Counted from the first letter of the whole stretch, positions 5,868 to 61,503 are shown. The stretch: DNA of 63,355 bases, filler included, from Conidiobolus incongruus B7586 (GCA_000697335.1; 18 parts of 18 records of this genome joined end to end with filler, not necessarily neighbours in it), one strand, 5' to 3'. Notes: a model not told the origin generated them from the letters alone. Made by a program: numbers and translations.

Positions 5868-7191
5868 CTTTACTTAAGATGAGTTATAAATTTGTAGGTT
5901 TATAAGTTAAAGGGGTATAAATAACAAAACTTATATATATCTTTTTTTTTCTTTTGTTATATTATTTATATTATAAAACTATTAAGCTAATATTTTAAAA
6001 TTAATATTATAATGTTTAAATCTCTCTATAAAAAAGTTCACTTATATATTAAATAACTTTATAATAAAAATAAATTAACTTATAAGATTACTAGAATTAC
6101 TAGTGTTAGTTAATCTACTATAGCTAGGGTTATTAAGAATAATGTTAAAAAAACACCTAAACTAAAACTTAAGTTTAATAAAATTATAGATAAGTATGAT
6201 AAAAAATATATTTATAGATTAGTTAGTATAGGTAAATATAATATTATTATAGAAGTATAACAAGAATTATAAAATTATATAGAATATTAATTAATACTAA
6301 TATTATTATATATGTTTTATATTAGAATAGATATTACTTACACCTTAAGAAAAAACACTCCTAACTAAAGAAATCCCATTATAAAGTTAGGTGGGAGTTT
6401 AAATGTCAATATTAAAGTTAAACTGAAATTAACTAGAGTAAAGTTATTTAGTTTAATAAAACAAAGATATATCTTAATAAATTTAATAAAAGAGTTAGAT
6501 GTTTTAAAAAAGATAAAAAACTACTTTATAACCATTATGTTATTATAACCCAAAAATATAATAATAGGTTTATTATAGTTTAGGGATATATGTTATCTTT
6601 AGGTATAAGGTATCTTTATAAGGTTAATAGGGGAATTAATACTAAAATATATTAAATTATTCTAAATAATAAATTGAAAAAACTATTAAATGATATAGAT
6701 TAAAGAAATCAAATATTATTTTCTAATAAGATAATATACCTTATTATACTACAAATTTTATTATTTAATATCTTAAAAATAACAAAATAACTATTATAAA
6801 ATAGCATCCTTAATCTTTTAATCTTAACCTAATTGAATATCTTTAGGATTAACTAAAAAAATCAATTAAAGCTTTCCCTCTAGCAAAAAATTTAAATCAA
6901 CTTTAAGAGTATATTCAAGAAGCTTGGAATAATATTAGCCTTGTTTAATATAAGAAGCTAGTTAACTCTATACCCTACAAACTTAAAGAAATTAAAAAAG
7001 CAAAAAATAGATATACTAGATATTAATTTTTCTATCAATACTAAAACTTACAAATTTAAAACTTATCTTAAGTATACTTTTAGTTTTAATATATCAATTA
7101 ATAAATAATTAAATTTAACTTTATATATAATATTATAAAGAAAAAATATATATTAATTACATAGTTTAATATAAGTTTATTTAAATTAGAA
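5868..7191 (+). mobile_element. Tc1 (DD34E) transposon relic, subfamily A, ends lost in gaps
   Basis: Inner repeat GATGAGTTATAAATTTGTAGG near 5878 and its inverse near 7045-7070. ATG retained at 6012. Degenerate W-P-x-Q-S-P-D-L-N-P-I-E at ~6800-6837 (TAG CAT CCT TAA TCT TTT AAT CTT AAC CTA ATT GAA). Collinear with the 11187 copy. Confidence 0.9.
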
Positions 7192-7291
7192 NNNNNNNNN
7201 NNNNNNNNNNNNNNNNNNNNNNNNNNNNNNNNNNNTTAATTAATTAANNNNNNNNNNNNNNNNNNNNNNNNNNNNNNNNNNNNNNNNNNNN

Positions 7292-8394
7292 TATTAAAAT
7301 ACTTAAATCCCTTTTTAAAAAGATTCACTTGTATATTAATCAACTCTATAATAAAGGTAAATCAACTTGTGAGATTATTGGAATTACTAGTGTTAGTTAG
7401 TTTATTATAACTAAAGCTATTAAAAATTATGGTAAGGATATATCTAAACCTAAACTTAAACATACTAGGATTATAAATAAATATAATGAAAGGTATATTT
7501 ATAGGTTAGTTAATATAAGTAAATATAATATTATTATAGAAGTATAGAAAGAATTACAAGACTATATATGAATATTAGTTAGTATTAATACTATTATATA
7601 TACTTTATATTATAATAGATATCACTTACATTTTAAGAAAAAACATCCTCAACTAAAAAAGTCCTATTATAAAGTTAGGTAAAAGTTTAAATATTATTAT
7701 TAAAGTTGAATTAAAACTAATTAGAGTAAGGTTATTTAATTTAATAAAACAAAAGTATATTATAGTAGATTTAATAAAAAAGCTAGATGTTTTAGAAAAA
7801 ACAAAGAACTACTTTATAACTATTATATTATTTTAACCTAAAAATAAAATAATGGGTGAATTATAATTTAAGAATATATGTTATCTTTTGGTATAAGGTA
7901 TCTTTATAAAATTAATAAGGGAATTAATGTTCAAATATACTAAAATATTCTAAACAATAAATTAAAAAAAATTATTAAATAATATAGGTTAAATAAATCA
8001 GATGTTATTTTTTAACAAGATAATTCCTTTTGCTATATTACTATTTTTACTACCAAATAGTTCAAAAATAATAAAATAATAGTTATAAAGTAGTTTTTTT
8101 AATCTTTTAACTTTAATTTAATTAAATACCTTTAGGATTAGTTAAAAAAATTAGTTAAAGCTTTCCCACTAGCAAAAAATTTAAATAAACTTTAGGAATA
8201 TATTTAAGAAGCTTAAAACAAAATTAATCCTTCTTAATATAAGAAGTTAATTAACTCTATATCCTATAAACTTAAGGAAGTTAGGAAAGCAAAAAGTAAA
8301 TATACTAAGTTTTAATTTTCTTTCCATAACCAAAATATATAAATTTATAACTTATCTTAGGTAAAATTTAAATTTTAATATATCAACTAAAAGT
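7292..8394 (+). mobile_element. Tc1 (DD34E) transposon relic, subfamily B
   Basis: Collinear with the 11519-12600 part of the full-length copy; F*QDN and degenerate WP..SPDLNPIE motifs; right inner repeat near 8335-8360. Confidence 0.9.
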
Positions 8395-8997
8395 NNNNNN
8401 NNNNNNNNNNNNNNNNNNNNNNNNNNNNNNNNNNNNNNTTAATTAATTAANNNNNNNNNNNNNNNNNNNNNNNNNNNNNNNNNNNNNNNNNNNNAATCAT
8501 AAAACTTTTATATCTTTGATTTTTGCTTGTATTTTTTACGCAATCAATAATTCTAGTTATTTTATATTCTTAAATATTAATTGATTTATAAAATTTTGAT
8601 TTTATGGTTTTATTAATTATATTAAGCATTAATTTTAATTATATATAATATATTTAAGTATTTAACTTTAAATCGAATTAATAAAACAATTATTTAATTC
8701 AAATAAAATTATAATTTTTTGGATATTTTCTTAATTTTTTTATAATCATAATAGTGATATTAAATTTAATTTATTAAATTTCAATAATTTCCAATTTATC
8801 TTGAAAATAACAAATCTAATAATATAAACTCATTTAAAATAAAACATTACCTTGATTATTAGTTTATATATCTTAAATAACTTCAAATGATTTTTAGCTA
8901 AGTTTTGATAATATTGAAATTTAGGACTATAGAAATATTACTTTATAATTTAAATAATGGGAATTTTGTAATTGAAAAATATAGATATTTTGATATA

Positions 8998-11186: not shown

Positions 11187-12759
11187 CACTAGCCTATAAA
11201 AGTTAGTCATAAAATTAAAATCACTTTTATATTTACCTATAACTTAAATAATTCTTAACTAAATTAATTTAAATAAAAGTATATAATTAAGATATATTAC
11301 CTGATTATAATAGGTTATATTTAATTATATTTAATATAATATTGGTTAATATATTAAATCTGAAATTTTAAATAGGATGTGTCATAAATTTGTGGGATTA
11401 GGAGTTAAAAGGGTATATAAAACCAAAATTACTTAAATCCTTTTTTTTATTTAATTATATATATATATACTAATATTAATATTTTTAAATTATTATTTTA
11501 AATAATATTAGTATTAAAATACCTAAATCCCTTTAAAAAAATTCACTTGAATATTAATCAACTCTATAATAAAGGTAAACCAACTTATGAAATTACTAAT
11601 TACTAGTTCTAGCTAGTTTATTATAGCTAAAGCTGTAAAAAATTATGATAAGGATATATTTAAATCTAAACTTGGGTGTGCTAGGATTATAGATAAATAT
11701 GATAAAAGGTATGTTTATAAGTTGGTTAATACAAGTAAATATAATATTGCTATAAAAATACAGAAAGAATTATAAGACTATATAATAATATTAGTTAGTA
11801 CTAATACTATTATACATATTTTATATTATAATAGATACCACTTATATTTCAAGAAAAAACACCCTTAACTAAAGAAGTCCTATTGTAAAGCTAGGCAGGA
11901 GTTTAAATATCATTATTGAAATTCAACTAAAACTAATTAGAGTAAAGTTATTTAGTTTAATGAAGCAAAAATATACCTTAGTAGATCTAATAGAAAAGCT
12001 AGATATTTCAGAAAAAACAAAAAACTAATTTATGACCAATATGTTATTTCAACCCAAAAATATCATGGTGGGTTAATTATAGTTTAGGTATGTATATTAT
12101 CATCTAGTATAGGGTATCTTGGTAAAGTTAATGGTGGAATTAGTATTGAAAGATATTAAAATATTCTAAACAATGAATTAAAAGAACTATTGAATAGTAT
12201 AGGTTAAATAAATCATATGTTATTTTCTAACAAGATAATATCCCTTATTATATTATTATATCTACTACCAAATGGTTTAAAAATAATAAAATAACAATTA
12301 TGAAGTGGCCTTCTTAATCCCCTAACTTTAATCCAATTGAATACCATTAGGATCAGTTAAAAAAACAATTAAAGCTTTCCCATTAGCAAAAAATTTAAAT
12401 GAGCTTTGGGAATATATTTAAGAAGCTTGCAATAAAATTAATCCTTCCTAATATAAGAGGTTAGTTGACTCTATACCCCATATATTTAAGGAAGTTAAAA
12501 AAGCAAAAGGTAGATATACTAAGTTTTAATTTTTTTTCAATACCCAAAATACACAAATTTATAACTCATCCTAGGTAAAATTTAAATTTTAATATATAAA
12601 CTAAAAGTTAAGATAATTGGATCAAATATACTTAATTATAAATAAATAATTTAGGTTTATTATACATTTTAATTTAAATTTATTGGATTAAGAATTAACA
12701 GATTTATTGATAATAATATATATAATAATAGTTTTATAACTCATTTTTGTAGGCCAGTG
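11187..12759 (+). mobile_element. Full-length Tc1-family element (1573 bp), subfamily B, TA target-site duplication
   Basis: TA at 11185-86 and 12760-61. ~28-bp TIRs: left CACTAGCCTATAAAAGTTAGTCATAAAA; right (reverse complement) CACTGGCCTACAAAAATGAGTTATAAAA. Inner repeats at ~11375-11396 and 12551-12571. Confidence 0.95.
11519..12529 (+). pseudogene. Tc1 DD34E transposase pseudogene (~337 codons)
   Basis: Start ATG->ATA (M-P-K-S-L). Motifs VI*FNEAK (VIWSDEAK), HGGLIIV* (HGG.IMVW), F*QDN and KWPS*SPNFNPIE, with exactly 34 residues between D and E; C-terminal KAKGRYTKF*. Confidence 0.92.
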
Positions 12760-13812
12760 TATTATCTAAGAATTATCTTTAACTTTGAGGATTAACTTTA
12801 CCTTTTATAAATCTAAAATACAATTGTATTTTGAATATTTATATATATTTTTTAATTAATTAAGAGTATTAAAACTAAATATAATTAAAAAATAATATAA
12901 AGAACAAGAATATTATATTGTTTATATTATTAAATCTAAATTTATTAGGAATTAGCTTTATTTTTCTAAAAAGAAAATAAGTTATCTAATTAATAAAATT
13001 ATATAACAACTTTTAAATAATAAATGGAATATTTCAACTTATTATATATTTTGTTAAAATATAAAGAATAGGTTTTTTTAAGAGATTTGCTAAAAGAATA
13101 TTAAAAAACTAGTTTTTGAAATTTATATATATATATTTTTATATAATTTAATAAACTATAAATTATATAACTATTTTATACTTTTATAACTAAATTAATT
13201 ATATAAATAAAATTAAAATATTTAATACAAAGGGTTTTTCTTTTTTATCTTAATTTTTAATCTGTTTTATTTTTTACCTAATTTCTAATATTAAGACTAT
13301 ATTTTATAGATATTATAATATATTAACTTTATTTAATATATATCCAAATATATAAGTGACTTATTACAATTCAAAGCTTAATTAAACTTTGTTATTTATT
13401 ATATATTATATTATACTTTATATTATAATATTTTGTACTATATACTTATATAATAAAACTTATTATATATTATATTATATTAAATACTATTATATTTATA
13501 GATTAATATATAATGATATCTTTCAGCTAAAATAGTACAGAGTTTGTAAAATAATAGTAATTATAATTTTTTTAAATTATTATTGTTATAATAAGATATA
13601 TTAAAATATGTTTTTTATTTTATTTTATTTAATTAATTAAAATTATATTAATTAGTTTATTATAGTATTAATGATATAGTTTAAACTTTTATATATCTTT
13701 ATAATATGATTTNNNNNNNNNNNNNNNNNNNNNNNNNNNNNNNNNNNNNNNNNNNNTTAATTAATTAANNNNNNNNNNNNNNNNNNNNNNNNNNNNNNNN
13801 NNNNNNNNNNNN

Positions 13813-15226
13813 ATATTTACTTATATTTTAAATAATTCTTAATTAAATAAATTTAAATTAAAATATATAATTTAATTATATTAGTTAATTATAATTAACT
13901 ATATATGATTATATTTTATCAACTATTATTTAATATATTAAAGCTTAAAATTTAACCAAGGTGAGTTATAAATTTATAAGTTTATAAGTTAAAAGGATAT
14001 AAATAACAAAAGTTATATTTATCTTTTTTCTGTTATATTATATAAATTATAAAATTATTAAGTTAATATTTTATAATTAATATTATAATGCTTAAATCTC
14101 TCTTTAAAAAAATTTGCTTATATATTAATGAACTTTATAATGAAAATGAATTAACTTATATGAATGTTAAAATTACTAATATTAGCTAATCTATTATAGC
14201 TGGGGTTATTAAAAATAATATTAAGAAAATACTTAAATTAAAACTTAAGTATATTAAAATTATAAATAAATATGATAACAAGTATATTTATAAATTAATT
14301 AATAAAAGTATAATAAAAGTTATAAAACTATATAACAATATTAATTAATATTAATATTATTATATATGCTTTAGATTAAAATAAATATCATTTATATTTT
14401 AAAAAAAATATCTTTAATCAAAGAAATCTTATTATAAAATTAAATTGGAGCTTAAATGTCAATATTAAATTGAAATTAAAATTAATTAAAGTAAGGTTAT
14501 TTAATTTAATAAAACAAAGGTATATTTTAATAATTCTAATAAAAAAGTTTAATATTTTAAAAAAGGTAAAGAATTACTTAGTAAATATTAAGTTATAATA
14601 ACTTAAATATATAATAATAAGTTAATTATAATTCAAGAATATATATTATATTTAAATATAAAGTATCTTTATAAGATTAATATAGGAATTGATATTGAGA
14701 TGTATTAAAATATTCTAAATAATAAATTGAAATAAAAACTATTAAGGAATATATGTTAAATAAATCAAATATTATTTTTTAGCAGGATAATACCCTTTAT
14801 CATATTATAAATTCTATTATTAAATAGCTTTAAAGTAATAAATTAACTATTATAAAATAACCTCTTTAATCTTTTAATTTTGATCTAATTAAATACCTTT
14901 AAGATTAATTAAAAAATTAAATAAAGCTTGCCCCTTAGTAAAAAATTTAAATTAACTTTAAAAGTATATTAAAAAAGCTTAGAATAAAATTAATCTTGTT
15001 TAATATAAGAAATTAGTAAACTTTATACCCAATAAACTTAAAAAAGTTACAAAAACAAAAGATAGATATATTAGATATTAATTTTTTATCAATACTAAAA
15101 CCTATAAATTTATAACTTATTTTAATTATATTTTTAGTTTTAATATATTAATTAATAGTAAAATAAATTTAACTTTATATATTATATTATAAAAATAAAA
15201 TATATATTAATTATACAGTTTAATAT
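13813..15226 (+). mobile_element. Tc1 relic, subfamily A
   Basis: Inner repeat GGTGAGTTATAAATTTATAAG near 13960, ATG CTT AAA TCT CTC start, F*QDN at ~14776-14790, inverse inner repeat ~15097-15120. Collinear with the 5868 copy. Confidence 0.9.
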
Positions 15227-15326: not shown

Positions 15327-16788
15327 TACCTAAAAATATAATATAAATTTAAAATATATTATTAGAAAATAAATGATATATTTAGATATATTTAGTAAAG
15401 TACTGGTAACAATATTAACCCTTAATTTTTAATCAAAATAAGTTATAAATTTATAGATTTTTGAGATAAAAGGATATATTTAAAAATATATAAATTTTTC
15501 TTTTTTCTTTTTTTGGTATGATTTTATATAATATTTTACAAATATATTAAATTCTTTTTATTAATATACCTAAATCCTTTTTTAAAAAAATTTATTTATA
15601 TATTAATCAACTCTATAAAAAAGATAAATCAACTTATAATATTACTAGAATTACTAATGTTAGTTAGTTTATAATAGTTAAAGTTATTAAGGATAACAAT
15701 AAAAATACATTTAAACTTAAACTTAAGTATGTTAAGATTATAAATAAATATGATAAAAGGTATATTTATAGGTTAGTTAATATAAGCAAATATAATATTA
15801 TTATAAAAATATAACAAAAATTATAAGACTATATAAAAATATTAGTTAATACTAATAATATTATATATATTTTATATTAACATAGATATTATTTATATCT
15901 TAAAAAAACAATCCTAATTAAAAAAAATCCCATTATAAAGTTAAATAAGAGTTTAAATATTATCACTAATATTAAACTAAAATTAATCAAAATAAGGTTA
16001 TCTAGTTTAAAAGAATTATGATATATTTTTATTAATTTAATAAAAAAGCTATATATTTTAGGAAAGATATAAAATTACTTTATAACCATTATATTAATTT
16101 TACCCAAAAATATAATGATAGGTTAATTATTATTTGGGGATATATATTGCCTTTATATATAAAGTTTTTTTGTAAAGTTAATAGGGGAATTAATACTAAG
16201 ATATACTAAAATATTCTAAATAATAAATTAATAAAACTATTGAATAATATAGGTTAAACAAATTTAATATTATTTTTTAGTAAGATAATACCTCATGTTA
16301 TATTATAGCTTTTATTACCAAATAGCTTAAAAATAACAAGATAATAGGTATAAAGTTGCTTTTTTAATCTTTTAACCTTAACCTAATTAAATACCTTTAG
16401 GATTAGTTAAAAAACCTATTAAAGCTTTCCCTTTAGCAAAAAATTTAAATTAACTTTAGAAATATATTTAAAAAGCATAGAGCAAGATTAACTTATTTTA
16501 ATATAAGAAGTTAGTTAATTCTATATCTTATAAACATAAAAAAATTAGAAAAATTAAAGATATTTATATTAAGTTTTAATTTTTATTTTATCACCAAAAA
16601 CCCACAAATTTATAACTTGCCTCAGATAAAATTTAAAGGTTTTATATTTTAATCAATTAATAACTAAAAATTATCATTTAATAATATATAATATTAATAA
16701 ATATAATAGATTTTAATTATTTAATTTAAGTTTATTTTATTAAATATTAATTAAGTTATTAGTAAAAATATAAGTCTTTTTAATTTTA
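15327..16788 (+). mobile_element. Tc1 relic, subfamily C
   Basis: Collinear transposase remnant; right inner repeat AAAACCCACAAATTTATAACTTGCC at ~16597-16621. Subterminal sequence shared with the 22855 and 37986 copies. Confidence 0.9.
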
Positions 16789-22854: not shown

Positions 22855-24198
22855 ATAATTAAAATCTATTATATTTATTAATTATATATATCATTAAATG
22901 ATAATATTTAGTTATTAATTAGTAAAAATATAAACTTTTAAATTTTACCTAAGATAAGTTATAAATTTATAAGTTTTTAATATTAAAAAAAATTAAAATT
23001 TAGTGTATCTATCTTTAACTTTTCTAATTTCTTTAAGTTTGTAGGGTATAGAATTAACTAACTTCTTATGTTAAAAAGGGTTAATTTTGTTCTATACTTT
23101 TTAAATATATTTTTAAAATTGATTTAAATTTTTTGTTAAAGAGAAAACTTTAATAGCTTCTTTTAACTAATTTTAAAAGTATTTAATTAGATTAAAGTTA
23201 AAAAATTAAAAAAACTACTTTATAACTATTATCTTGTTATTTTTAAGCTATTTGGTAATAAAAGCTATAATATAACAAAAGGTATTATTATATTAGAAAA
23301 TAATATCAAATTTGTTTAACTTATACTATTTAATAGTTTTTTTCAAATCATTATTTAAAATACTTTAGTATATCTCAATATTAATTCCCTTATTAACTTT
23401 ATAAAAATATTTTATACCTAAAAATAATATATATTCTTAAATAATAATTAACCTATTATTATACTTTTAGGTAAAATTAATATAATAGTCACAAAGTAAT
23501 TTTACATCTTTTTTAAAGTATTTAGCTTTTTTATTAAATTTACTAAAATATATTTTTGTTTTATTAAATTAAATAACCTTACTCTAATTAATTTTAGTTT
23601 AATATTAATAATGACATTTAAACTCTCATTAAACTTTATAATAGGATTTTTTAGTTAAAGTTGTTTTTTCTTAAGGTATAAATAATATCTATGTTAATAT
23701 ATAATATATATAATAATATTAGTGTTAACTAATATTCTTGTATAGTTTTATAATTCCTGTTATATTTCTATAATAACACTATATTTACTTATATTAATTA
23801 ACCTACAAATATACTTTTTATTATATTTATCTATAATTTTAATACACTTAAGTTTAAGTTTAAAAGTTTTTTTATTATTATTCTTAATAACTTTAACTAT
23901 AGTAAACTAACTAACACTAGTAATTCTAATAATATCATAAGTTGATTTATCTTTTTTATAATGTTAATTAATACACAAATAAATTTTATTAAAGAGGGAT
24001 TTAAATATAATAATACTAATAAAAAAAATTAGTATATTTATAAAATATTATATAAAATAATAATAAAAAGAGAAAAAAAATATAGTTATATATTGTTAAA
24101 TATATCCTTTTATCTCAAAAACCCACAAATTTATAACTCACCTTAGTTAAATATTAAAGGTTAATATTTTTGCTAATAATTTACTAAATATATCTAAA
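22855..24198 (-). mobile_element. Tc1 relic, subfamily C
   Basis: Reverse complement of the 15327 copy; well-preserved inner repeat AAAACCCACAAATTTATAACTCACC at ~24118-24142. Confidence 0.9.
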
Positions 24199-48896: not shown

Positions 48897-50234
48897 TTAA
48901 GAGTGATGATGATCATTGATTAATTTTTCTAAAATTTTCAATTCTTCTGTATTACAGTTGGGTGGTTGAGTTTCACTTAGTAGTTTGAGGAAGGTTTTCC
49001 CAACTTCCCAACTCGCTTTCTTTTTCGCCAACTGAAGTAGATTGTATATCAGTTGGACGTTTTCAGAATCGTCCCCTTCCAGCTGCTTGAAGTAGTCTAG
49101 GAAGATTTGACCGCTGTTCAGGCCGACTTCAGGTGGGATGTAGTAGTTGGGTAGTTTTATGGAGGTGGCGATGGTGGCTGGAATGTTCATGGTATTTAAT
49201 GGGAGTGAAGTCATATTAATTCCATTCGTTGTGAGAGAATTGGGTGTTAGAAATGGTGTTGTCATTGTTGTGGATGTGATAGATGTTGTATTTTCAATGG
49301 AATGCCTCAGTAGTAAAGATTGCTGCTCCAACTGTTGGTCAAGCGGAGATTGCGTCAACTGGGGCGTCAAATGAACTTGACTTGTTCCAATATTGGACGA
49401 AGTATGGGACAAATGCTGCATTAGCGAATTATCGTTAAGTTCATTGGCGCTAAGATGTCCAGGCGGTAAACTGGACTCAGAATGAGCAGGAATTTGAATC
49501 TGAGAAGGAGAATTAGAAGTTTGATCATTATCCATGTCATGTGAACTATTTCTAAGTTTGGAATTCTCATCCTGTTGAGCACTCATCCCATGCATACTAG
49601 TCTGACCCGCAGCTGTCAACTGACTCAAATCAAACGTCAGTCCATGGTTCGTAGTGCTATGCCCCAAAAAATTCTCCTCCAACATGGGAAACTCCAAATC
49701 CTGAGGAGTCTGAATCATTGAAATAGCTTTTCCATCTAGCAGTTTTAATTTTTTCTTTATCCTAGCTAGCCACCCATTCGAAAACTTCAAATTCTCCTTC
49801 CCAATATTCAATTCGGCACTCAACCTCTTCGCTTCCTTCATGATCATCGCATCACCAATATTCTCCACTGTTTGTTTTGTCTTTACATACCACTTCTTTA
49901 ACTCTTCCTCCAACTCTGGAAACCTTGGCGGCCTCAACCTAAACTGAACAAAATTAGCATTATTATCAGCCCCTTCCACTAACAATTGGTGCCACCTATC
50001 GCTATTCTTTAAAATACTACTAACTGTACTCCTCTTAATCTTAAATATTGTAGCTAATTCCGAATGTTTTAAATTAGGATGCTGTTTAAAATAATTACAT
50101 AATTTCACTTTATCTTGTAAGCTCAATTTTGCTCGAGGTATTATTGGTTTTTTAGGTTTATTTGAATTATTGTTATTGTTATTGTTATTTGCGGTATTAT
50201 CATTATTTGTATTAATAAGGTTAAAATTTTCCAT
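48897..50234 (-). CDS. CENP-B/pogo(Tc5)-type double-HTH DNA-binding protein lacking a DDE domain (domesticated transposase)
   Basis: RAKLSLQDKVKL...HSELATIFKIKRSTVSSILK (CENP-B N HTH) and RPPRFPELEEELKKW...DAMIMKEAKRL...LKFSNGWLARIKK (Tc5 HTH), followed by S/T/Q/H low-complexity sequence. Intact 445 aa; no TIRs seen. Confidence 0.88.
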   Translation of the reverse strand: MENFNLINTNNDNTANNNNNNNNSNKPKKPIIPRAKLSLQDKVKLCNYFKQHPNLKHSELATIFKIKRSTVSSILKNSDRWHQLLVEGADNNANFVQFRLRPPRFPELEEELKKWYVKTKQTVENIGDAMIMKEAKRLSAELNIGKENLKFSNGWLARIKKKLKLLDGKAISMIQTPQDLEFPMLEENFLGHSTTNHGLTFDLSQLTAAGQTSMHGMSAQQDENSKLRNSSHDMDNDQTSNSPSQIQIPAHSESSLPPGHLSANELNDNSLMQHLSHTSSNIGTSQVHLTPQLTQSPLDQQLEQQSLLLRHSIENTTSITSTTMTTPFLTPNSLTTNGINMTSLPLNTMNIPATIATSIKLPNYYIPPEVGLNSGQIFLDYFKQLEGDDSENVQLIYNLLQLAKKKASWEVGKTFLKLLSETQPPNCNTEELKILEKLINDHHHS

Positions 50235-51608
50235 AATAAAGGATTGTTGAGTTGATATTTTTGTTTTATAATATTTTGTTTAGGGTATTAAAAAGAGTGA
50301 TGTGATAAATATATTTATAATTAGGAATGAATGGGGTTGTTATATCAGGTGAACCACTATTATTGGTTAAAATCCATACTTGATTAATTGATTTATTTCT
50401 ATAATAGTCATTTTAATTGGATTGGGTATAATGAATTTTATACACTAAATTGATACTTGAGATTTATTTTAAACAATTAGTTTAAATTTTTTGTAAATAC
50501 CATAAAGGTTATTATAGTATTTTAAATAATTGTAGTTGTAATCTTATTTGTATATTGATTATCAATTATATTAATTTAATAATACACATCTATCATATTA
50601 TATTTGAAAATTTGATTAATTTGGGAATAATTATTGATCGATTTGATGATGCAAGCTAATGTTTTTATATTAAATTGATTTAAAAAAATATCATTAAGAT
50701 AATTATATTTCAATTATTAAATTTGATAAAAAAATTAATGGACATGTTTTGAAAGGATTGTGGATATATATATATGTTTAGAAATTAATATATTTGACAA
50801 TAGATTTATTTGCTCATCAAAATAATTGAATTAAAAATAACAATACATATAGAATATATTGATAATCAAGTTCATATTAGTTTCACCTTTATCCTTATAA
50901 ATATTTGGATTAATAATTAATTTTTGAGAATATATATTTAGTTTGAAAAATCAAATATATATCAGCTTATTTTCAATAAATTATATAAAATAATATAGTT
51001 TTTTTTTGAATTCAAAAAATATGAATAGTTATTTCTAGATTTTGTAATTTATTTTTATTAAAATAATTTTTTGATATAATATTGGAATATATTTAATTTA
51101 AAGTCTTAAGTCACTTTGATATATTTAATATGTATTTTATTAAATATAAAACACATATAAAGTATTTATTATTATAATCAATAAGATATTAAGTTTATGT
51201 TTTTCAAGTTTTATTAATACTATGATAAATTCTATATTATTTATTTATTTTTATTAAATAAAGAATAATAAGTTTGAATATTCTTTTAAAATTTAAAAAT
51301 CCTTTATAAAATCTTAAAGGAATAAAAAATTCATAATAAAGTTTGTAAATAGTTATAAACTATTTATATTATATGCTGATTTATTTTTCAATATAATATA
51401 TATATAATATAATATTGAAATTAAAATTTTTTATAATTAATTAATATTAATATAAAAGCTAAATAAAGTTAAATTTGAAAAATCAAAATTAAATAATATT
51501 ATTAATAANNNNNNNNNNNNNNNNNNNNNNNNNNNNNNNNNNNNNNNNNNNNTTAATTAATTAANNNNNNNNNNNNNNNNNNNNNNNNNNNNNNNNNNNN
51601 NNNNNNNN

Positions 51609-51739
51609 TTTATTTATTATTAAATAATATACCTTAATTATATATTATAGTTTCAAGTAATCTAATATATACAATTGTTTTAGTTATTAATTAAAATATA
51701 TATATTTTTGATTTTATGACTCACTTTTGTAGGTTAGTG
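51609..51739 (-). mobile_element. Tc1 subfamily C 5' terminus (TIR + TA)
   Basis: TTTTATGACTCACTTTTGTAGGTTAGTG|TA; the adjacent ~100 nt match 38560-38665. Confidence 0.85.
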
Positions 51740-53419
51740 TATAACTTGTCAAATATTTTTAATTTATATAGTATTTAATCTGATAATTTCTAAACTTTAT
51801 TAATTTTTCTTAATTATTTTATTAATTAACTAAAACTTATAATTAATACCTTTGAAAATTCCTCTTAAATATTATTAATATGAATTTCTAAAATATCTAA
51901 TATTTTTTTATTAGATATTTTTATTTTTCTATTTATGTATGCTTTATCTTTAGTATAATAATTATTATTTTGAATATATACAAACTATTTTTAATAATAG
52001 CTAAGAATAATAGTATCTTTACTATATATTTGATTAATAATTCTATATGACTCAGATGGTTTATATACTTGATTAAAATAAAATAACATAATATTTCTTA
52101 AAAAATTATTATTAAGCTTTAGTGGGAATCATTGTAAAAAAATTTATATTTAAATAATAATATTAGAATATATACTTAATTTATATTAATTCTAAAAATT
52201 TTAACTATTTTTTAAAGTTGGTTTTATATTAACTTCACCAAATTATGAATATAATTAGGAAAACAATCAATAAACACAATGATAAAAATAAATGATAACT
52301 TAAATGAATTTTTTTTCAAGCTTAATATAATTAGATAAAATCTGTTTTCATTTGATAGCTGAAATATTAGAATATATAATCAATCAGATATAGATTAAAT
52401 TTTGTAAAAAATTCCTCAATAATATAAACAGATATTAATATCTTATAATATAATTAAATAGATATAATGTTTAAATATATATTAATATTATTAAATCCTA
52501 GTTATCAATAGTTTAATATATTTGATTTTTATCTATTATATTTTATTGAATAATAATATTATAAAATAAAAATGAATATCAAAAAAATATCGAATTTGAA
52601 ATATTTTATTTTTAAAATAATATATATTTCAAAGGTAAAAATATGTTAATATTATTTATTTATTTAAAAATAATATTGATTTATATTTTCTAAAAAATAA
52701 ATTTAAAATCTTAAATATTTTTAAAATCAAGTTTAATTATACTTTTAAATAAATTTTTCATAAATAATAAAATATTATAGTTTTAAGTATATAACCTTAT
52801 AATACAATTTTGGAAAATATAATTTATAAACCTTTATTATCAATATATATTTGATTAAATTCTATATTTAGTAATAACATTAATTATCTTTAATAATAAA
52901 TTAATAAAGCAATTTATAAACAATATATATATTTATATAATATTGCTTAATATTATTTTTTAAAAATATATAAGGATAATAAACATATTATTGCAAAAAA
53001 CATATTATTAAACTTAGCCTTGATTCACTTTGTAATATAATATAATTCTTAATGAAAATAGTTTAAAATTTACCTAAATTATAATATAATTAAATAAAAA
53101 AATAAATTACTCATTCTATTTATATTTTAATTTTTATTAAAAAATGAAAAACAAATCTTTTAAATAGCTTAGGATGTTTGATATATTAATATATAATTAT
53201 ATTATATTTATCAGTCGATATTTTATTATTATATTGATTTTATTTTTATATTTAAATTAATAATAAAATGATTTAATTATTTTAAAATATAATATATGGA
53301 TAAATTTAAAATGATATAANNNNNNNNNNNNNNNNNNNNNNNNNNNNNNNNNNNNNNNNNNNNTTAATTAATTAANNNNNNNNNNNNNNNNNNNNNNNNN
53401 NNNNNNNNNNNNNNNNNNN

Positions 53420-54468
53420 TAATAATAAAAATTAAAACTTAGTATATTTACCTTCAACTTTTTTAACTTCTTTAAATTTATAGGGTATAAAATCAATTAA
53501 CTTTTTATATTAAAAAAGATTAATTTTGTTTTAAGCTTCTTAAATATATTCCTAAAGCTTATTTAAATTTTATATTGATAGGAAAGCTTTAACTATTTTT
53601 TTAACTAATCCCAAAAATATTTAATTAAATTAAAGTTAAAAGATTAAAGAAATTACTTTATAATTATTATTTAATTATTTCTAAATTATTTGGTAGTAGA
53701 AATAATAATATAACAAAGGGTATTATCTTGTTAGAAAATAACATTTGATTTATTTAACTTATATTATTTAATAGTTTTTTTATTTATTATTTAAAATATT
53801 TTAATATATCTTATTATTAATTCCCTTATTAATTTTACAAAAATAACTTATATTAAAAAATAACATATATTTTTAAATTATAATTAATTAATTATTATAT
53901 TTTTAGGTTAAAATAACATAATAGTTATAAAGTAGTTTTTTGTTTTTTTAAAATATTTAGTATTTTTATTAAATTTACTAAGGTATATTTTTGTTTTATT
54001 AAACTAAATAACCTTACTTTAATTAATTTTAATTCAACTTTAATGGTGACATTTAAACTCTGATCTAATTTTATAATAAGACTTTTTTAATTGGGGGTGT
54101 TTTTTCTTAAGATAGAAGTAATATCTATTATAATATAAAATATATATAATAATATTAATACTAACTAATATTTTTATATAGTCTTATAATTTTTTCTATA
54201 TTTCTATAATAGTATTATATTTATCTGTATTAACTAACCTATAAATATATTTTTTATCATATTTATTTATAATCTTAATATACTTAAGTTTAAGTTTAAA
54301 TATATCTTTACTATAATTTCTAATAGCTTTAACTATAATAAACTAGCTAACACTAGTAATTCCAACAATCTTATAAGTTGATTTATCTTTATTATAAAGT
54401 TGATTAATATATAAATGAATCTTTTTAAAGAGGGATTTAGGTATTTTAATATTAATATTATTTAAAAT
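53420..54468 (-). mobile_element. Tc1 relic, subfamily B
   Basis: Reverse complement of 7292-8330 and 11500-12540; retains TGG GAT after the PIE motif. Confidence 0.9.
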
Positions 54469-54568: not shown

Positions 54569-55995
54569 AAAACATATAATAAACTTATATTATTTATTTA
54601 TAATTAAGTATATTTAATCTAATTATATTAACTTTTAGTTGATATATTAAAATTTAAATTTTACCTAAGATAAGTTATAAATTTGTGTATTTTGGTTATA
54701 AAAAGAAAATTAAAACTTAGTATATCTATCTTTTGCTTTCTTAACTTCTTTAAGTTTATAAGGTATAGAGTTAACTAACTTTTTATATTAAGATAGATTA
54801 ATTTTATTCTAAGCTTCTTAAATATATTCCCAAAGCTTATTTAAATTTTTTACTGATAAGAAAGCTTTAACTACTTTTTTAACTAATCCCAAAGTTATTT
54901 AATTAGATTAAGGTTAAGGGATTAAAGAAACTACTTTATAATTATTATTTTATTATTTTTAAACCATTTAATAGTAGAAATAATAGTATAACAAAAGGTA
55001 TTATCTTATTGGAAAATAACATCTGATTTATCTAATTTATATTATTTAATAGTTTTTTTAATTTATTGTTTAGAATATTTTAGTATATTTTAATATCAAT
55101 TCCCCTATTAATTTTACAAAAATACCTTATACTAGAAGATAACATATATCCTTAAACTATAATTAACCTATTATTATATTTTTGGGTTAAAATAACATAA
55201 TGGTTATAAAATAATTCTTTGTTTTTTCTGAAACATTTAACTTTTTTATTAGATCTACTAAAATATATTTTTATTTTATTAAACTAAAATAACTTTACTT
55301 TAATTAATTTTTATTTAACTTTAGTGATGATATTTAAATTCCTACTTAATTTTATATTCAGACTTTTTTAATTAGGGGTGTTTTTTTTAAAATATAAGTA
55401 ATATCTATTATAATATAAAGTATATATAATATTATTAATATTAATTAATATTCTTATATAGTCTTATAATTTTTTTTATATTTTTATAATAGTATTATAT
55501 TTACCTATATTAACTAACTTATAAATATACTTTTTTCATGTTTATTTATAATCTTAACACATTTAAGTGTAAGTTTAGATATATCCTTACTATAATTTTT
55601 TATAGCTTTAATTATAATAGACTAACTAGTATTAGTAATTCCAGCAATCTCATAAGTTGATTTATCTTTATTATAAAGTTGATTAATATATAAATGAATT
55701 TTTTTAAAAAGGGATTTAGATATTTTGATACTAATATTATTTAAAATAATAATTTACAATAATAATTTATAATATTAATATTAATATATATATATATAAT
55801 TTAATAAAAGAAAAAAATATTTAAGTAATTTTTGTTTTATATATCTCTTTAATTTCTAAACCTGCAAATTTATGCCTCACCTTATTTAAAATTTAAGTTT
55901 GATATATTAACCAATAATATATTAAATATAATTAAATATAACCTATTATAATCAGGTAATATACTTTAATTATATACTTTAATTTAAATTAATTT
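54569..55995 (-). mobile_element. Tc1 relic, subfamily B, near full length
   Basis: Reverse complement of ~11262-12710; inner repeats at ~54668-54692 and ~55858-55882; retains TTC CAA in the FQQDN motif. Confidence 0.9.
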
Positions 55996-56095: not shown

Positions 56096-56188
56096 TTATT
56101 TTTTAATTATTATATTAATTTTACCTAAAAATATAATAATTAGTTAATTATTATTCAAGGATATATATTGTTTTTAAAGGTAAAATAT
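56096..56188 (+). mobile_element. Tc1 subfamily C internal fragment, host of the LTR insertion
   Basis: Aligns with ~16073-16165 (ATTATATTAATTTTACC.AAAAATATAAT...GTTAATTATTATT..GGATATATATTG); homology stops exactly at the LTR edge. Confidence 0.75.
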
Positions 56189-56769
56189 TATTAAGCTTTC
56201 TAACTAATATTTCTTTATTTAAGTTAAGTAATACATTATAATGATCACTTATTTTATTAATAAGATATATTATATAAGTGAATATTAATACTTTATAAAT
56301 AAACTACAGGTTTAATCTAATGGTAAACCCAAATAGTTACTTAGTTAGTATTATCACATAAAGTATAATCTAAGGTAATATATAAAGGAATAGATTTCTA
56401 AACAAAGCAACAATTGTTTTTTCTTCTAACTTAATTAAAGATAGTAAAAGCTAGCTCTATATTGTTTGATTAATTTTAATTTATTAAATAACAAATTGTT
56501 TATTTAGTAATTATATTAGATATTTCACTCCCTGATATTCTGTCAAAATGAAAAAATAATTTATAATATTATTGATATTGACTATAATAATAATTAAATC
56601 TTTATTAAAACTTATTTGTTTTATCAAAAATAAAGTGTTATTGATAATTAACAACAAAGTATAAATTATTAATATAAAATTAATTGTTTATAACTTAAGA
56701 AAAACAGTCTAATTAACTTAATTAATAATAACTTAAAAGATTACTAATATATTATTTTAAATGGCAATA
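56189..56769 (-). repeat. 3' LTR (581 bp)
   Basis: Ends TATTA...CAATA (= TGTTG...CAACA after transitions); direct repeat of 58991-59482; polypurine tract adjacent at 56770-56781 on the minus strand. Confidence 0.85.
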
Positions 56770-58990
56770 TTATCCCTTTTTAGATGAATTTTTATCTTTG
56801 ATTTTTTAACAAAAAATTATTAATTAATTTTAAAGCATTAATATATTATAATTTAATCAATTAATGTTTTATTATTAGATATCTTTTTTAATAAACTAAA
56901 TAGTGTTTTTTTCATATTTAATTCTTTTGTTTAGAATTTTTTCAATTTTATAAATATCATTAATATTAGTTATAGTTTTAAAAACTTAATTATTATTACT
57001 CTTGATTTTTTTATTAGTGATTTAAATAGGGATAAATAAAAAATATCATGAATCTTTATGTTTTTAGGTAGTTTAACTTTATAAACAATGTTATTAATCT
57101 TCTTTATTATTGGGAATAGTTTTAAAAACTTAATATCTAGTTTTTTATTAAGTTTTATTAAACATAAATTTCAAGTACTAATATAAACTTTCTTGTTACT
57201 TAAATCTATATTAGTGTGTAATTATAGCTTTAAATCATAATATTTTTTGTATTGTTTTTAAGCTTGTTATAGATTCTTTGTTAATTAATCATATAAAGAA
57301 TTTAATTATTTATGATGATTTTCTAATTTTAGAAATTTAGTTGGTATATAGCTAGTAATAAATAAAAGATTATAGTTAGTATATGCTTTAAACAATGTTA
57401 TTTTGATTAATCAATAATATAAATTATTGTAAGAGAATTCTACCATTGGTAATAGTTTAAATATTTAGGTAATTCACTACCTATTTCTTTTAAGAAAACT
57501 TTGTTGAATTTTTTATATTTAATTAATATATTAATATAATTTTTTTTAGTTATATTATATAATTTATTTATCTCTATTTCAAGAAAAAGGATATTCAATA
57601 GTTTTTGTAATTTTTAAGATATTATAATTTATCTATTTTTAAAGTTTAAATAAATAGATAGTTTATTCAAAAATTTTATTCTAAGGATTACTAGTAAAGA
57701 TAATTTAATAATATAAAATTATATAAGAATATTCTATTTTTAAATTGAAATGTTAACTTATTTAGTAATTAGATTATTTTAATTAATTCTTCTTTTATTA
57801 ATAATAAGTATTTTATAATATTATGTATTTTCTTTTATTTGTAACTTATATCTTAATACAAATTCTTTCAACATATAATAATACAAACTACTGATATTAA
57901 TTATACATTGAAGCTTTTTTTTACTTATATTAACTTTAACAAATATATAAGTAATAAATAATGTTGAATAATTTTAGATGGCTGTTAATAGTTTCTAGTT
58001 ATAATAACTAGAATTTGTTTCTTGGTTTATTGAAATATCTTATATTAAAGTTCAATACTGTTTATTTTGTTAATTTTGAAGGAATTTGTAATTTGCCACC
58101 TAGTATTTTAGTTTATTATAATTAAAACATAGATTTTTTTTATTGTTAGATAAATTATTTTTTTAATATCTTAATTTTTCCTTGTTTAATTAGTTGAGTT
58201 TTAGTAGATTGTTTATTTTTTAAGCTATAAGTTAATAATTGTAATTTGTTTTTAGCGTTTATTGCTAGTAATATAGTTTTATGTAATATATCTTAAAGTT
58301 GCTAAGTCTTCAATTTTTATCTAAAATTAAACTATAAATTATCTATAAAATGAAGAATTTATGCTTTAGGGTTTAAGATAAAGTTTCTTGTTGAACTTAT
58401 AAATTAAATACCAAACTTTCTCACCAATTCTTTGATTTTTTACATATATTATTTAACTTATAGGTTAAGTTTGTTGTGTTTAGTTTTATCACCAAAATAT
58501 ATATCAAAATATCTTTTAAATTTATAAAAACTATTCAATAAATTTAGTTTATTTTTTAACATTATTTTTACCTATTTATAAATATTATTCTTTAATAAAT
58601 TTTTCAAAAAGATTACTTTTGAAGAATCTTTAATATAGTTGTTTTGATTCTGATTAATATAGTTTTTTAATTATTATAAAAACTTATAAGTTTCTTTAAT
58701 ATTTCCATTAAAATTAATATTAAAGCTATAATAATAATAAGTAATATAAGTTAGTAATAGGTTAACAGGTATAATTAGGTAGTTTATATTATTAATTTTT
58801 ATTTGTGGTAAGTTATTTATAATTTTCTTTTTTCTAAAATATATTATTAGTTGTATAATTATAGTTAATAATATTATTATAATTATTATTATTATTATGT
58901 AGCAATAAACTAAAATCTAATAAAATATTGTTATAAAAGTAAAAGTTATTATTTCTACTCTTAATTTTATATAAAGGGAGTAAAACATAC

Positions 58991-59482
58991 TATTGAGCTT
59001 ATTAAGTAATGTTTTTTATTTAACTTAAGTGATATATTATAGTATTTACTTATTTTATTAACAAGATATATTATATAAATAAGTATTAATACTTTATAAA
59101 TAAACTATAGGTTGAATCTAATAGTAAACTTAAATAGTTTTTTAGTTAATATTATCGTACAAAGTATTATCTAAAGTAATAATATAAAAGAATAGATTTT
59201 TAAATGGAGCAATATTTATCTTATTTTTGAATTTAAGTAAAGATAACAAAAGCTAACTTTATATTGTTCAATTAATCTTAATATGTTATTTAATAAATTA
59301 TTTATTTAATTATTATATTAGATATTTTACTCTTTGATATTCTATTGAGTAAAAGGGTAATTTATAATATTATTGATGTTAATTATAATGATAGCTAAGT
59401 TTTTACCAAAATTTATTTGTTTTATCAAAAATAAAGTATTATTGATAATTAATAATAAAGTGTAAATTATTAATGCAAAATT
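58991..59482 (-). repeat. 5' LTR (outer end lost in a gap)
   Basis: Begins TATTGAG on the plus strand; collinear with 56189-56682. Confidence 0.85.
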
Positions 59483-59582
59483 NNNNNNNNNNNNNNNNNN
59501 NNNNNNNNNNNNNNNNNNNNNNNNNNTTAATTAATTAANNNNNNNNNNNNNNNNNNNNNNNNNNNNNNNNNNNNNNNNNNNN

Positions 59583-61018
59583 TATTAATTGATATATTAA
59601 AACTAAAAATATATTTAAGGTAAGTTATAAATTTATAGGTTTTAATATTAATAGAAAAATTAATATCTAGTATATCTACCTTTTAGTTTTTTAATTTTTT
59701 TAAGTTTATAACGTATAGAATTAACTAACTTCATATATTAAGCAAGATTAATATTACTCTAAGTTTCTTGAATATACTTTTAAAATTGATCTAAATTGTT
59801 TACTAGGGGGAAAGCTTTAATTGATTTTTTAATTAATCCTAAAGATATTCAATTGGGTTAAAATTAAAAAATTAAAGAGGCTATTTCATAATAGTTATTT
59901 TATTATTTTTAAGCCATTTAATAGTTGAATTTATTATATAACAAGGGTTATTATCTTGTTAGAAAATAATATTTGATTTATTAAACTTATATCACTAAAT
60001 AGTTTTTTCAATTTATTATTTAAAATACTTTAATATATCTGCACATTAATTCCCCTATTAATTTTACAAAAATACCCTATATCTAGAGATAATATATATC
60101 CCTAAATTATAATTAACCTATTATTTTTTTTAGGTTATAATAACAAAATAGTTATAAAATAGTTTTTATTTTTTTTAAAACATCTAGCTTTTTTATTATA
60201 TTAATTAAGATATATTTTTGTTTTATTAAACTAAATAACTTTACTTTAGTTAATTTTAATTTAACTTTAATATTAATATTCAAACTCCCACCTAACTTTA
60301 TAATGAGATTTTTTTAATTAGGGGTATTTTTTTAAAATATAAGTAATATCTATTCTAATATAAAACATATATAATAATATCAGTATTAATTAATATTCTT
60401 TGATAGTTTTATAATTCTTATTATACTTTTATAATAATATTACACTTATCTATAATAACTAATCTATAAATATACTTTTTATCATATTTTTCTATAATCT
60501 TAATATGCTTAAGTTTTAGTTTAGATGTTTTTTTAGCATTATTCTTAATAACCCTAGCTATAGTAGATTAGCTAACATTAGTAATTCTAATAATCTCATA
60601 AGTTAATTTATTTTCATTATAAAGTTGATTAATATGTAAGTAAACTTTTTTAGAGAGAGATTTAAGCATTATAATATTAATTTTAAAATATTAGCTTAAT
60701 AGTTTTATAATATATATAATATAACAAAAGAAAAAAAAGATATATATATAAGTTTTGTTATTTATATCTTTTTAACTTATAAACTTGTAAATTTATAACT
60801 CATTTTGGTTAAATTTTAGGTTTTAATAAATCAACCAATAGTTAATAAAATATAATCAAATATTGTTAATTATAATCAATTAATATAGGAAATTTATATA
60901 ATTTAATTTAAATTTTAGATTTTAATATATCAACCAATAGTTTATGAAATATAATCAAATATTATTAGTTATAATCAACTAATATAAATAAATTATATAT
61001 TTTAATTTAAATTTATTT
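59583..61018 (-). mobile_element. Tc1 relic, subfamily A, with a 99-bp tandem duplication in the 5' subterminal region
   Basis: Reverse complement of the 5868 and 13813 copies; retains AAC CCA ATT GAA and the ATG; CAACCAATAG occurs at 60832 and 60931. Confidence 0.9.
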
Positions 61019-61118
61019 NNNNNNNNNNNNNNNNNNNNNNNNNNNNNNNNNNNNNNNNNNNNTTAATTAATTAANNNNNNNNNNNNNNNNNNNNNNNNNN
61101 NNNNNNNNNNNNNNNNNN

Positions 61119-61503
61119 TTTATATTGCTTTTTTAAATAACTATTAATTAGTTTTTATAGTATAATTGAAAAAGACTTTTTATTTTATATGATAATTATA
61201 AAATAAATAAATATAAAATTATAAAAAACTTTTTAATTAAAAATAACTAGAAAAAACTACTATATTTAATATATTCTTTAGATTATAATTTATATAAATA
61301 TAATTGTTTTAAGTAACTAAATAACCAGTTTATAAGAAAAAAAGTGTTTTATAAAGAAATTTAATTAGTTTATAAAATATTAAATTTTAATCTTTATTAA
61401 AAAGGATTATCTTTTAAGTGTTAGAAATTTATTAAAAATATCACAAAAAGTTATTCAAAAAATGTTATTAATTTTATATTATATGTTTATTTTTATATAT
61501 TAT
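61119..61503 (+). mobile_element. mariner-family relic, 3' part
   Basis: Reverse-complement homologue of ~8998-9370; reads FILYDNYK...FLIKNN*KKLLYLIYSLDYNL. Confidence 0.75.

What the first reader, a model, noticed from the sequence alone, without database searches (positions are those of the whole stretch)
5868..61503. RIP-like repeat-directed C->T hypermutation in an apparently early-diverging (non-Dikarya) fungus
Seen: about 12 Tc1 copies, the mariner copies and an LTR element remain largely collinear, yet each carries its own dense set of C->T and G->A changes. At the WPxQSPDLNPIE motif, the 12305 copy reads TGG CCT TCT TAA TCC CCT AAC TTT AAT CCA ATT GAA, the ~6802 copy reads TAG CAT CCT TAA TCT TTT AAT CTT AAC CTA ATT GAA, and the ~8091 copy reads TAG TTT TTT TAA TCT TTT AAC TTT AAT TTA ATT AAA. 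Taking C/G wherever any copy has it rebuilds most of a sensible transposase motif. CpA/TpG looks most saturated (CAA->TAA, TGG->TAG, ATG->ATA) and CpG is virtually absent, but CpC and CpT are also hit, so plain CpG deamination is insufficient. Neighbouring single-copy genes are unaffected. Established: RIP (RID/DIM-2 dependent, CpA bias) is demonstrated in Pezizomycotina, with RIP-like TCG-context patterns in some basidiomycetes. Inference: this lineage runs a RIP-analogous genome defence with a broad context, possibly via a different methyltransferase or deaminase. The taxonomic assignment is itself inferred.
Basis: partly seen in the sequence, partly recalled or inferred. Interest (0 to 1): 0.9.

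Follow-up and report, generated by a model that had tools for sequence, protein, structure and literature searches.

The report
RIP-like transposon hypermutation in Conidiobolus fungus
Transposon copies in this early-diverging Conidiobolus fungus have lost about 60% of their conserved cytosines to C-to-T change, mostly before an A, while single-copy genes and a dead gene nearby have not, a scar likely left by a repeat-targeted DNA-methylation mutator of a kind firmly known only from ascomycete fungi.

Summary
Observation confirmed. The organism is a close relative of Conidiobolus coronatus (Zoopagomycota): Ydj1 94.8% and S28 peptidase 75% identical. Ten large Tc1 (DD34E, IR/DR) copies, three fragments and one Ty3-type LTR element are present; only one mariner remnant was found. 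At 53 conserved transposase codons the copies changed 291 of 490 C/G positions by C>T/G>A but only 24 of 992 positions any other way. A single-copy S28 pseudogene shows 21 of 164 and 28 of 357. Loss is 92 of 106 at CpA, 65 of 150 at CpC. Unique intergenic DNA of similar GC has CpA o/e 1.21 against 0.57 in Tc1. Genome-wide AT bias exists but does not explain this. There is no strand asymmetry or clustering and no 5' context. Best reading (0.55): a RID-independent DIM-2/DNMT1-type methylation-linked mutator acting cumulatively; true premeiotic RIP 0.25. No enzyme, methylome or genome was available. An index-only RIP signal is already published for the related Zoophthora radicans; a 2025 survey calls the signature ascomycete-only.

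The parts
5868..7191 (+). Tc1 copy, subfamily A, both ends at assembly gaps; 22 in-frame stops
   Evidence: Pfam DDE_3 E 1.7e-4
7292..8394 (+). Tc1 copy, subfamily B; transposase frame 7299-8315 unbroken, 24 internal stops
11187..12759 (+). Only complete Tc1 copy (1573 bp): TA on both sides, imperfect terminal inverted repeats of about 280 bp with outer and inner related boxes; least mutated copy (14 stops)
   Evidence: DDE_3 E 9.8e-7 and HTH_Tnp_Tc3_2 E 6.8e-4
13279..13712 (-). Divergent Tc1-like piece, 60-65% identical to the main copies
13813..15226 (+). Tc1 copy, subfamily A; heavily mutated
15327..16788 (+). Tc1 copy, subfamily C
22855..24198 (-). Tc1 copy, subfamily C
37986..38693 (-). 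Tc1 copy, 5' half, subfamily C; outer end contiguous with flank where CpA o/e returns from 0.61 to 1.2-1.3
51609..51739 (.). Tc1 terminal-repeat stub ending at TA
52006..52107 (-). Mariner remnant (Mos1-type HTH); the only one found
   Evidence: Pfam HTH_48 E 5.9e-5, 23.6 bits against cut-off 24.1
53420..54468 (-). Tc1 copy, subfamily B
54569..55995 (-). Tc1 copy, subfamily B
56096..56181 (+). Tc1 internal fragment abutting the left LTR (LTR element probably inserted into a Tc1 copy; inferred)
56182..59482 (-). Ty3-type LTR element: LTRs 56182-56681 and 58984-59482, 2.3-kb interior with SH3_Tf2-1 and weak DUF4939 matches; no RT or integrase match
59583..61018 (-). Tc1 copy, subfamily A
29975..31350 (+). 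Control: S28 peptidase pseudogene (frameshifts, stops; 67% identical to the intact gene), GC 0.34, CpA o/e 1.26
26648..28084 (+). Control and marker: intact S28 peptidase, orthologue of C. coronatus KXN74413
34169..35435 (+). Control and marker: Ydj1-type DnaJ, 94.8% identical to C. coronatus KXN74415 over the main exon
48897..50279 (-). Control: intact single-copy gene with a Tc5/CENP-B transposase-type DNA-binding domain; not CpA-depleted (o/e 1.19-1.27)

Best explanation
The repeats in this Conidiobolus fungus carry a large excess of C-to-T change on both strands, strongest before A, which single-copy DNA lacks; the likely cause is a DIM-2/DNMT1-type cytosine methyltransferase, probably without RID, that would mark multicopy DNA so that the marked cytosines turn into thymines in many small doses. 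Shown: a Tc1 family spread to many copies; each copy then lost roughly 25-75% of its conserved C/G by transition with few other changes; the 3' neighbour matters (A highest, then T, then C; CpG almost gone) and the 5' neighbour does not; genes, a transposase-derived single-copy gene and a diverged pseudogene are spared. Inferred: the enzyme class, the methylation step, and that the change builds up gradually (vegetatively or over many cycles) rather than in a few premeiotic bursts. The effect is that every copy seen is dead, so it works as a genome defence whether or not it evolved as one.
For: Rate: C>T 291 of 490, other changes 24 of 992 in Tc1 against 21 of 164 and 28 of 357 in the pseudogene; copy by copy 8 of 10 differ from the pseudogene at p<0.001. 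An ancestor-free latent model on subfamily B gives C>T 0.29, C>A 0.013, T>C 0.023. Context: CpA 92 of 106, CpC 65 of 150; at ten Trp codons TAG 37, TGA 4, TAA 31, TGG 10; 5' neighbour flat at 0.57-0.60. Compartments: CpA o/e 0.57 [0.53-0.62] in Tc1, 0.80-0.85 in the LTR element, 1.21 [1.17-1.25] in unique intergenic DNA, at GC 0.15-0.19. A second, unrelated family agrees: LTR pair 72 ts, 17 tv. Gradual dosing: C and G loss equal in 10 of 10 copies (p 0.15-0.91) and same-strand clustering in only 1 of 10 at p<0.05. Precedent: Dim2 drives mitotic C>T at CpA in repeats of Zymoseptoria tritici (PMC8016269); Dim-2 is reported in early-diverging fungi (PMC7862722); RID/Masc1 was found only in Dikarya, apart from a bacterial-like chytrid gene (PMC5751038); PF00145 methylase genes are reported in all entomophthoralean sets studied (PMC11105155).
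Against: No methyltransferase gene, methylome or whole genome was available, so the enzyme is unobserved. Amselem et al. tie CpA/CpT signatures to RID, not to Dim-2/Masc2 (PMC4352252). Saturation over many RIP rounds would also erase strand clusters, and chimeric assembly of copies could too. A context-free loss of 57% already lowers CpA o/e from 0.94 to 0.75 (0.62-0.88), so part of the index signal is arithmetic; 8 of 10 copies lie below that range, 2 do not. The pseudogene also leans C>T (0.128 against 0.032 in the intact gene), so a background AT bias exists. The neutral control is one pseudogene of unknown age; copies share ancestry, so pooled p-values are too small. In Z. tritici over 98% of Dim2-linked C>T was at CpA, much narrower than here. 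Lax et al. call 5mC scarce in Zoopagomycota (PMC11258239).
Confidence: 0.55

Rival explanations
1. True RIP: duplicated sequences are recognised by pairing at the sexual (zygospore) stage and mutated in bursts, by a RID analogue or by the DIM-2 branch of RIP.
For: CpA is the top context, as in ascomycete RIP; classic indices are in the RIP range (TpA/ApT 1.21, (CpA+TpG)/(ApC+GpT) 0.57); the signal stops at one contiguous element end; copies differ widely in load, 30-71% (chi2 97, 9 df); a single-copy transposase-derived gene is spared; seven C. coronatus S28 paralogues are all under 67% identical; Z. radicans scores 24.2% by RIP index.
Against: No strand asymmetry or strand-coordinated runs. 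RID not reported outside Dikarya. No native duplicate above 80% identity lies in the window to show that duplication as such is the trigger. The protein database clusters at 90%, so the paralogue figure cannot show a lack of recent duplicates.
Confidence: 0.27
2. No special process: old copies decay under a genome-wide GC-to-AT mutation bias towards the AT-rich intergenic equilibrium.
For: Unique intergenic DNA is only 19% GC, close to the copies' 15%; the pseudogene's stops and changes lean C>T; part of the CpA drop is arithmetic.
Against: Copies have about six times the C>T distance of the pseudogene (0.90 against 0.14) with a third of its other changes; C>T:C>A is about 40:1 in copies and 1.75:1 in the pseudogene; unique DNA is CpA-rich and CpT-poor, the opposite of what a genome-wide CpA bias would leave; one copy holds 24 stops and no frameshift.
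Confidence: 0.07
3. A cytidine deaminase (AID/APOBEC-like), or poor repair of uracil in repeat heterochromatin, causes the loss without methylation.
For: Pure transitions in all contexts including CpC and CpT.
Against: No 5'-neighbour preference, whereas AID/APOBEC enzymes read the 5' base (recalled); both strands equal and unclustered; a DNA transposon has no single-stranded cDNA stage; a repair defect gives no obvious reason for a twofold CpA:CpC difference.
Confidence: 0.09
4. Sequencing or assembly artefact.
For: Nearly every copy abuts an assembly gap; recurrent one-base losses in A-runs.
Against: Genes in the same contigs are intact; independently assembled contigs of the reads show the same transition-dominated variation (236 transition, 47 transversion places in X1) and include 178 pieces at 99% or more identity to the copy laid (same sample as the likely source, so not an independent organism).
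Confidence: 0.02

Closest known systems
RIP of Neurospora crassa and other Pezizomycotina (RID-dependent, with a DIM-2 branch)
   Same: C:G>T:A transitions on both strands, confined to repeats, CpA the top context, AT-rich dead relics, index values in the RIP range.
   Different: Host is Zoopagomycota; context is broader (CpT and CpC lost at 40-55%, CpG almost gone); no strand-coordinated clusters; RID, premeiotic timing and pairing trigger not shown.
Dim2-dependent mitotic CpA mutator of Zymoseptoria tritici (PMC8016269)
   Same: Repeat-restricted C>T favouring CpA; would give strand-symmetric, unclustered accumulation as seen here.
   Different: There over 98% of C>T is at CpA and CpG is not depleted; here CpG, CpT and CpC are also lost; enzyme unobserved here.
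Index-based RIP signal in Zoophthora radicans (24.2%) and, weakly, other Entomophthoraceae (PMC11105155)
   Same: Same order of fungi, same direction of dinucleotide skew.
   Different: That work used window indices only, with stated caveats; Neoconidiobolus thromboides is blank in its RIP column and no Conidiobolus value appears in the passages read. Here the signal is shown on aligned copies with neutral controls, in a different family.
CpG (TpCpG) signature of Microbotryum and rusts; CpG+CpA signature of Tuber melanosporum and Aspergillus niger/fumigatus (PMC4352252)
   Same: CpG loss in repeats; combined CpA and CpG loss.
   Different: No 5' T preference here; CpA loss at least as strong per site as can be shown for CpG.
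Sleeping Beauty / IR-DR Tc1 transposons
   Same: Catalytic domain matches SB100X (PDB 5cr4, E 3.3e-28); D-D34-E spacing; long terminal repeats with inner and outer boxes; TA target.
   Different: All copies seen are dead; no intact relative found in the protein search.

Membership tests
RIP (strict) | Changes are C:G>T:A transitions | tested here: met
   291 of 315 changes at conserved codons; LTR pair 72 of 89 are transitions
RIP (strict) | Confined to repeated DNA | tested here: met
   rests on one pseudogene, 8.3 kb of coding and 19.3 kb of intergenic DNA; that the intergenic set is single-copy was checked only within the window
RIP (strict) | CpA preference | tested here: met
   CpA 92 of 106, CpC 65 of 150; TAG:TGA 37:4; broader than in Neurospora
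RIP (strict) | Strand-coordinated, clustered mutation within a copy | tested here: inconclusive
   no asymmetry in 10 of 10, clustering in 1 of 10; saturation could hide it
RIP (strict) | Triggered by duplication as such, above about 80% identity | tested here: inconclusive
   the native pairs in the window are 67% (S28) and 60% (CAP) identical and show Ts/Tv 1.1 and 0.9; no closer native duplicate present
RIP (strict) | Needs RID/Masc1 | not testable with these tools
   no genome held; literature finds RID only in Dikarya
RIP (strict) | Acts in the premeiotic sexual stage | not testable with these tools
   needs progeny sequencing
Dim2-type methylation-linked mutator | 5mC on repeats at the mutated contexts | not testable with these tools
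   no methylome
Dim2-type methylation-linked mutator | DIM-2/DNMT1 gene present | not testable with these tools
   no genome; PF00145 genes reported for the order
Dim2-type methylation-linked mutator | Strand-symmetric, unclustered C>T at CpA in repeats | tested here: met
   context wider than in Z. tritici
AID/APOBEC-type deamination | 5'-neighbour preference (TpC or WRC; recalled) | tested here: not met
   0.57-0.60 for all four 5' bases; 0.35-0.53 without a T peak
Tc1 (IR/DR) transposon | DD34E transposase, TA target duplication, terminal inverted repeats | tested here: met
   D149, D241, E276 by alignment to SB100X; TA and repeats on copy 11187-12759
Non-Dikarya host (Conidiobolus) | Markers group with Conidiobolus, not Ascomycota | tested here: met
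   S28 sister to C. coronatus 100/99; Ydj1 sister to P0001, whose 90% cluster holds C. coronatus KXN74415. The Ydj1 tree puts that pair next to three ascomycetes at 89/90, unstarred, so the tree's deeper placement is not informative

The most novel reading that the evidence does not exclude
Conidiobolus runs a real, RID-independent RIP: duplicated DNA is detected by homology at the zygospore stage and mutated at CpA, so repeat-induced mutation either predates the Dikarya or arose separately in Zoopagomycota.
Probability: 0.27. Interest if true: 0.88.

Novelty: new variant of a known kind. Interest (0 to 1): 0.62.

Why it matters
Whether RIP-like mutation exists outside Dikarya is open: a 2025 survey of 1,239 genomes, C. 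coronatus among them, calls the signature unique to ascomycetes (PMC12543289), while a 2024 paper reports an index-only signal in Zoophthora (PMC11105155). This window gives alignment-level evidence with neutral controls in a third situation, a Conidiobolus where RID is not expected. If the cause is a DIM-2/DNMT1-type enzyme, CpA-biased repeat mutagenesis is older than RID and CpA indices cannot be read as proof of RIP or of sex; if it is tied to zygospores, RIP has a second origin or a much deeper one. Conidiobolus species grow in culture (recalled), so the question is directly testable.

Tried and rejected
No whole genome is held, so methyltransferase and deaminase genes could not be searched. 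A search for intact relatives of the transposase with an alignment of 15 pieces found none among 7976 candidates (the word index is handicapped by the mutations, so this shows nothing); the profile search of representatives never ran because the machine was full. No RNA holder listed. Runs X5 and X7, same species label, laid nothing on the Tc1 copy, no proof of absence. No read-based check of copy number or polymorphism in unique DNA was obtained, so that control stays open. A metagenome scan for the orthologous Ydj1 locus of a sister Conidiobolus gave 35 loci, best 66% identical, none used. Bewick et al. 2019 is not held, so the Conidiobolus methyltransferase set is not cited from it. The 'any C is ancestral' reconstruction was judged biased and the latent-ancestor model underestimates loss (it cannot see sites lost in all copies); both are given only as brackets. 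In the conserved-codon test 2 of 55 positions (197, 208) were dropped because no copy fits the Sleeping Beauty residue; with them the counts are 291 of 508 and 60 of 1028. The singleton test of direction was weak (8 of 85 against 31 of 865) and is not relied on. Several 57-65% self-BLAST hits between AT-rich stretches were treated as chance.
Full report
Setting. The window alternates gene islands of 35-45% GC with AT-rich DNA of 9-20% GC and has 17 gaps of 100 bases, each with a short linker inside; most Tc1 copies touch a gap, so distances across gaps are uncertain. No whole genome is held. Genes include two CAP-domain proteins, two kinases, an S28 peptidase, Ydj1, enolase and a Tc5/CENP-B-type protein.

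Organism. The best named match of the S28 peptidase is Conidiobolus coronatus (75%), then Entomophthora (41%) and Neoconidiobolus (40%); the tree of 26 chosen rows makes it sister to C. coronatus KXN74413 at 100/99. Ydj1 is 95% identical to P0001, whose cluster holds C. coronatus KXN74415, and 94.8% to that protein itself. The Ydj1 tree of 25 chosen rows is unresolved at depth (the pair sits beside three ascomycetes at unstarred 89/90), so the placement rests on identity and the S28 tree. The organism is a Conidiobolus close to, but not, C. coronatus; the species was not determined.

The repeats. Ten large copies of one Tc1 family align collinearly and fall into three subfamilies by transversion distance. 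A profile of their frames matches Sleeping Beauty SB100X at E 3.3e-28 with D-D34-E spacing. The complete copy, 11187-12759, has TA at both ends and long imperfect inverted repeats. In runs X1 and X4 (one sample, probably the source) 7,759 of 493,904 and 8,906 of 1,490,999 contigs lay on 1 kb of this copy, with 236 transition and 47 transversion places in X1: a large family with the same spectrum, though depth is no copy number. A Ty3-type element at 56182-59482 has two LTRs. One mariner remnant was found.

Rate. I scored codon positions fixed by residues shared with Sleeping Beauty, which needs no reconstruction and sees saturated sites. At 53 codons, 291 of 490 C/G positions show C>T or G>A; all other changes are 24 of 992 (55 codons before two were dropped). 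The same test on the S28 pseudogene (204 codons conserved in at least 80% of 10 relatives) gives 21 of 164 and 28 of 357; the intact gene gives 5 of 155 and 16 of 357. So the pseudogene has drifted at least as far by other changes yet has about one sixth of the C>T distance (0.14 against 0.90). Copy by copy, 8 of 10 differ from it at p<0.001; the least mutated copy (p 0.13) and the half copy (p 0.09) do not. Pooled p-values overstate the case because copies are related. A latent-ancestor model brackets it from below: subfamily B C>T 0.29 (0.25-0.35), C>A 0.012, T>C 0.023.

Context. CpA 92 of 106, CpC 65 of 150 at fixed positions. At ten Trp codons, where either change gives a stop, TAG outnumbers TGA 37 to 4. 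Reconstruction-based rates rank CpA 0.60-0.72, CpT 0.42-0.57, CpC 0.28-0.44, with few CpG sites at 0.77-0.88 (all-copy runs). The 5' base has no clear effect. By compartment: Tc1 GC 0.15, CpA o/e 0.57, CpT 1.37, CpG 1 of 74 expected; LTR element CpA 0.80-0.85, CpG 2 of 19; unique intergenic GC 0.19, CpA 1.21, CpT 0.80, CpG 118 of 171; coding CpA 1.18; pseudogene 1.26. Against the reading: a context-free loss of 57% would itself give CpA o/e 0.75 (0.62-0.88) and about 1.4 CpG per copy; 8 of 10 copies fall below that CpA range and the ten hold 1 CpG. So index values exaggerate, but a real context effect remains. At the one element end with a gene-rich contiguous flank (38693) CpA o/e goes from 0.61 inside to 1.19-1.33 outside; the flanks of copy 11187-12759 stay low and may be further relics.

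Dosing. Loss at variable sites ranges from about 31% to 69% among copies (chi2 97, 9 df), C and G loss are equal within every copy, and same-strand neighbours are correlated in only 1 of 10. That fits many small doses; it does not exclude many rounds of RIP.

Mechanism. Shown: repeat-restricted, two-strand, 3'-context-dependent C>T hypermutation in two unrelated element types, over a weaker genome-wide AT bias. Inferred: methylation of repeats by a DNMT1-superfamily enzyme followed by deamination. I favour a DIM-2/DNMT1 type (0.55) because RID is reported only in Dikarya (PMC5751038, passages), Dim-2 is reported in early-diverging fungi (PMC7862722, passages), Dim2 is a demonstrated mitotic CpA mutator in Z. 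tritici (PMC8016269, abstract and passages), and clusters are absent. True RIP stays at 0.27 because CpA signatures track RID in ascomycetes (PMC4352252, passages) and a single-copy transposase-derived gene is spared. Lax et al. describe 5mC as scarce in Zoopagomycota but repeat-located in Linderina (PMC11258239, passages).

Novelty. Stajich et al. 2024 (PMC11105155; passages; supplement searches) report index-based RIP of 24.2% in Z. radicans and 2.4-5.7% in three relatives, and say RIP may act outside Dikarya, with caveats. Badet and Croll 2025 (PMC12543289; abstract, Results parts 1-3 of 4, passages, 12 of 19 supplements searched) call the signature unique to ascomycetes; C. coronatus is in their set with 6.4% repeats. 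A 2026 review (PMC13297926, passages) does not mention Zoopagomycota. Nine paper searches showed no alignment-level report for Conidiobolus; subscription papers are not covered and unseen supplements may hold values. Unchecked notes of this scan describe similar scars in Endogonales and Dimargaritales, with other contexts; they are leads only, but they hint that the phenomenon is wider than one lineage, which would suit an old methyltransferase-linked cause and makes this window one case among several.

Verdict. Real, well controlled for a single window, outside the lineages where RIP is accepted, anticipated by one index-only report; enzyme and timing unknown. New variant of a known kind; interest 0.62.

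Noticed in passing
Tc1 copies, offsets about 338, 665 and 852 of the transposase frame (e.g. window 12179, 12365, 23671): One-base (sometimes two-base) losses recur in the same three A-runs in 5-8 of the copies across all three subfamilies; at 12358 about a third of genome-wide contig depth has the extra A. Slippage in runs lengthened by G>A, shared descent from defective copies, or homopolymer read error.
   Followed up: partly
17 gaps, e.g. 5768-5867: Every gap is 100 bases with the same 12-base linker in the middle; most abut a Tc1 copy, so adjacency across gaps is uncertain.
   Followed up: no
48897-50279 (-): Intact 460-codon ORF with a Tc5/CENP-B DNA-binding domain and low-complexity tail, likely a domesticated transposase domain; not hypermutated.
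   Followed up: partly
29975-31350 (+): S28 peptidase pseudogene beside an intact paralogue; several frameshifts and stops; used as neutral control.
   Followed up: yes
8936-9349, 61135-61567, 22453-22749; also 9743-10207 and 62861-63327: Unclassified AT-rich repeats (68-77% identity), no Pfam match in the frames scanned; Ts/Tv 0.5-0.9, perhaps relics already stripped of C/G.
   Followed up: partly
32195-32632 (-): 145-codon ORF between S28 and Ydj1 with no Pfam match; C. coronatus has one accession number between its S28 and Ydj1 orthologues.
   Followed up: no
1888-2706 and 62015-62602 (+): Two CAP (cysteine-rich secretory) domain genes with low-complexity N-terminal parts, about 57-60% identical in DNA.
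   Followed up: no
45651-47320 (+): Intron-split PAK-type kinase (PBD plus kinase domains).
   Followed up: no
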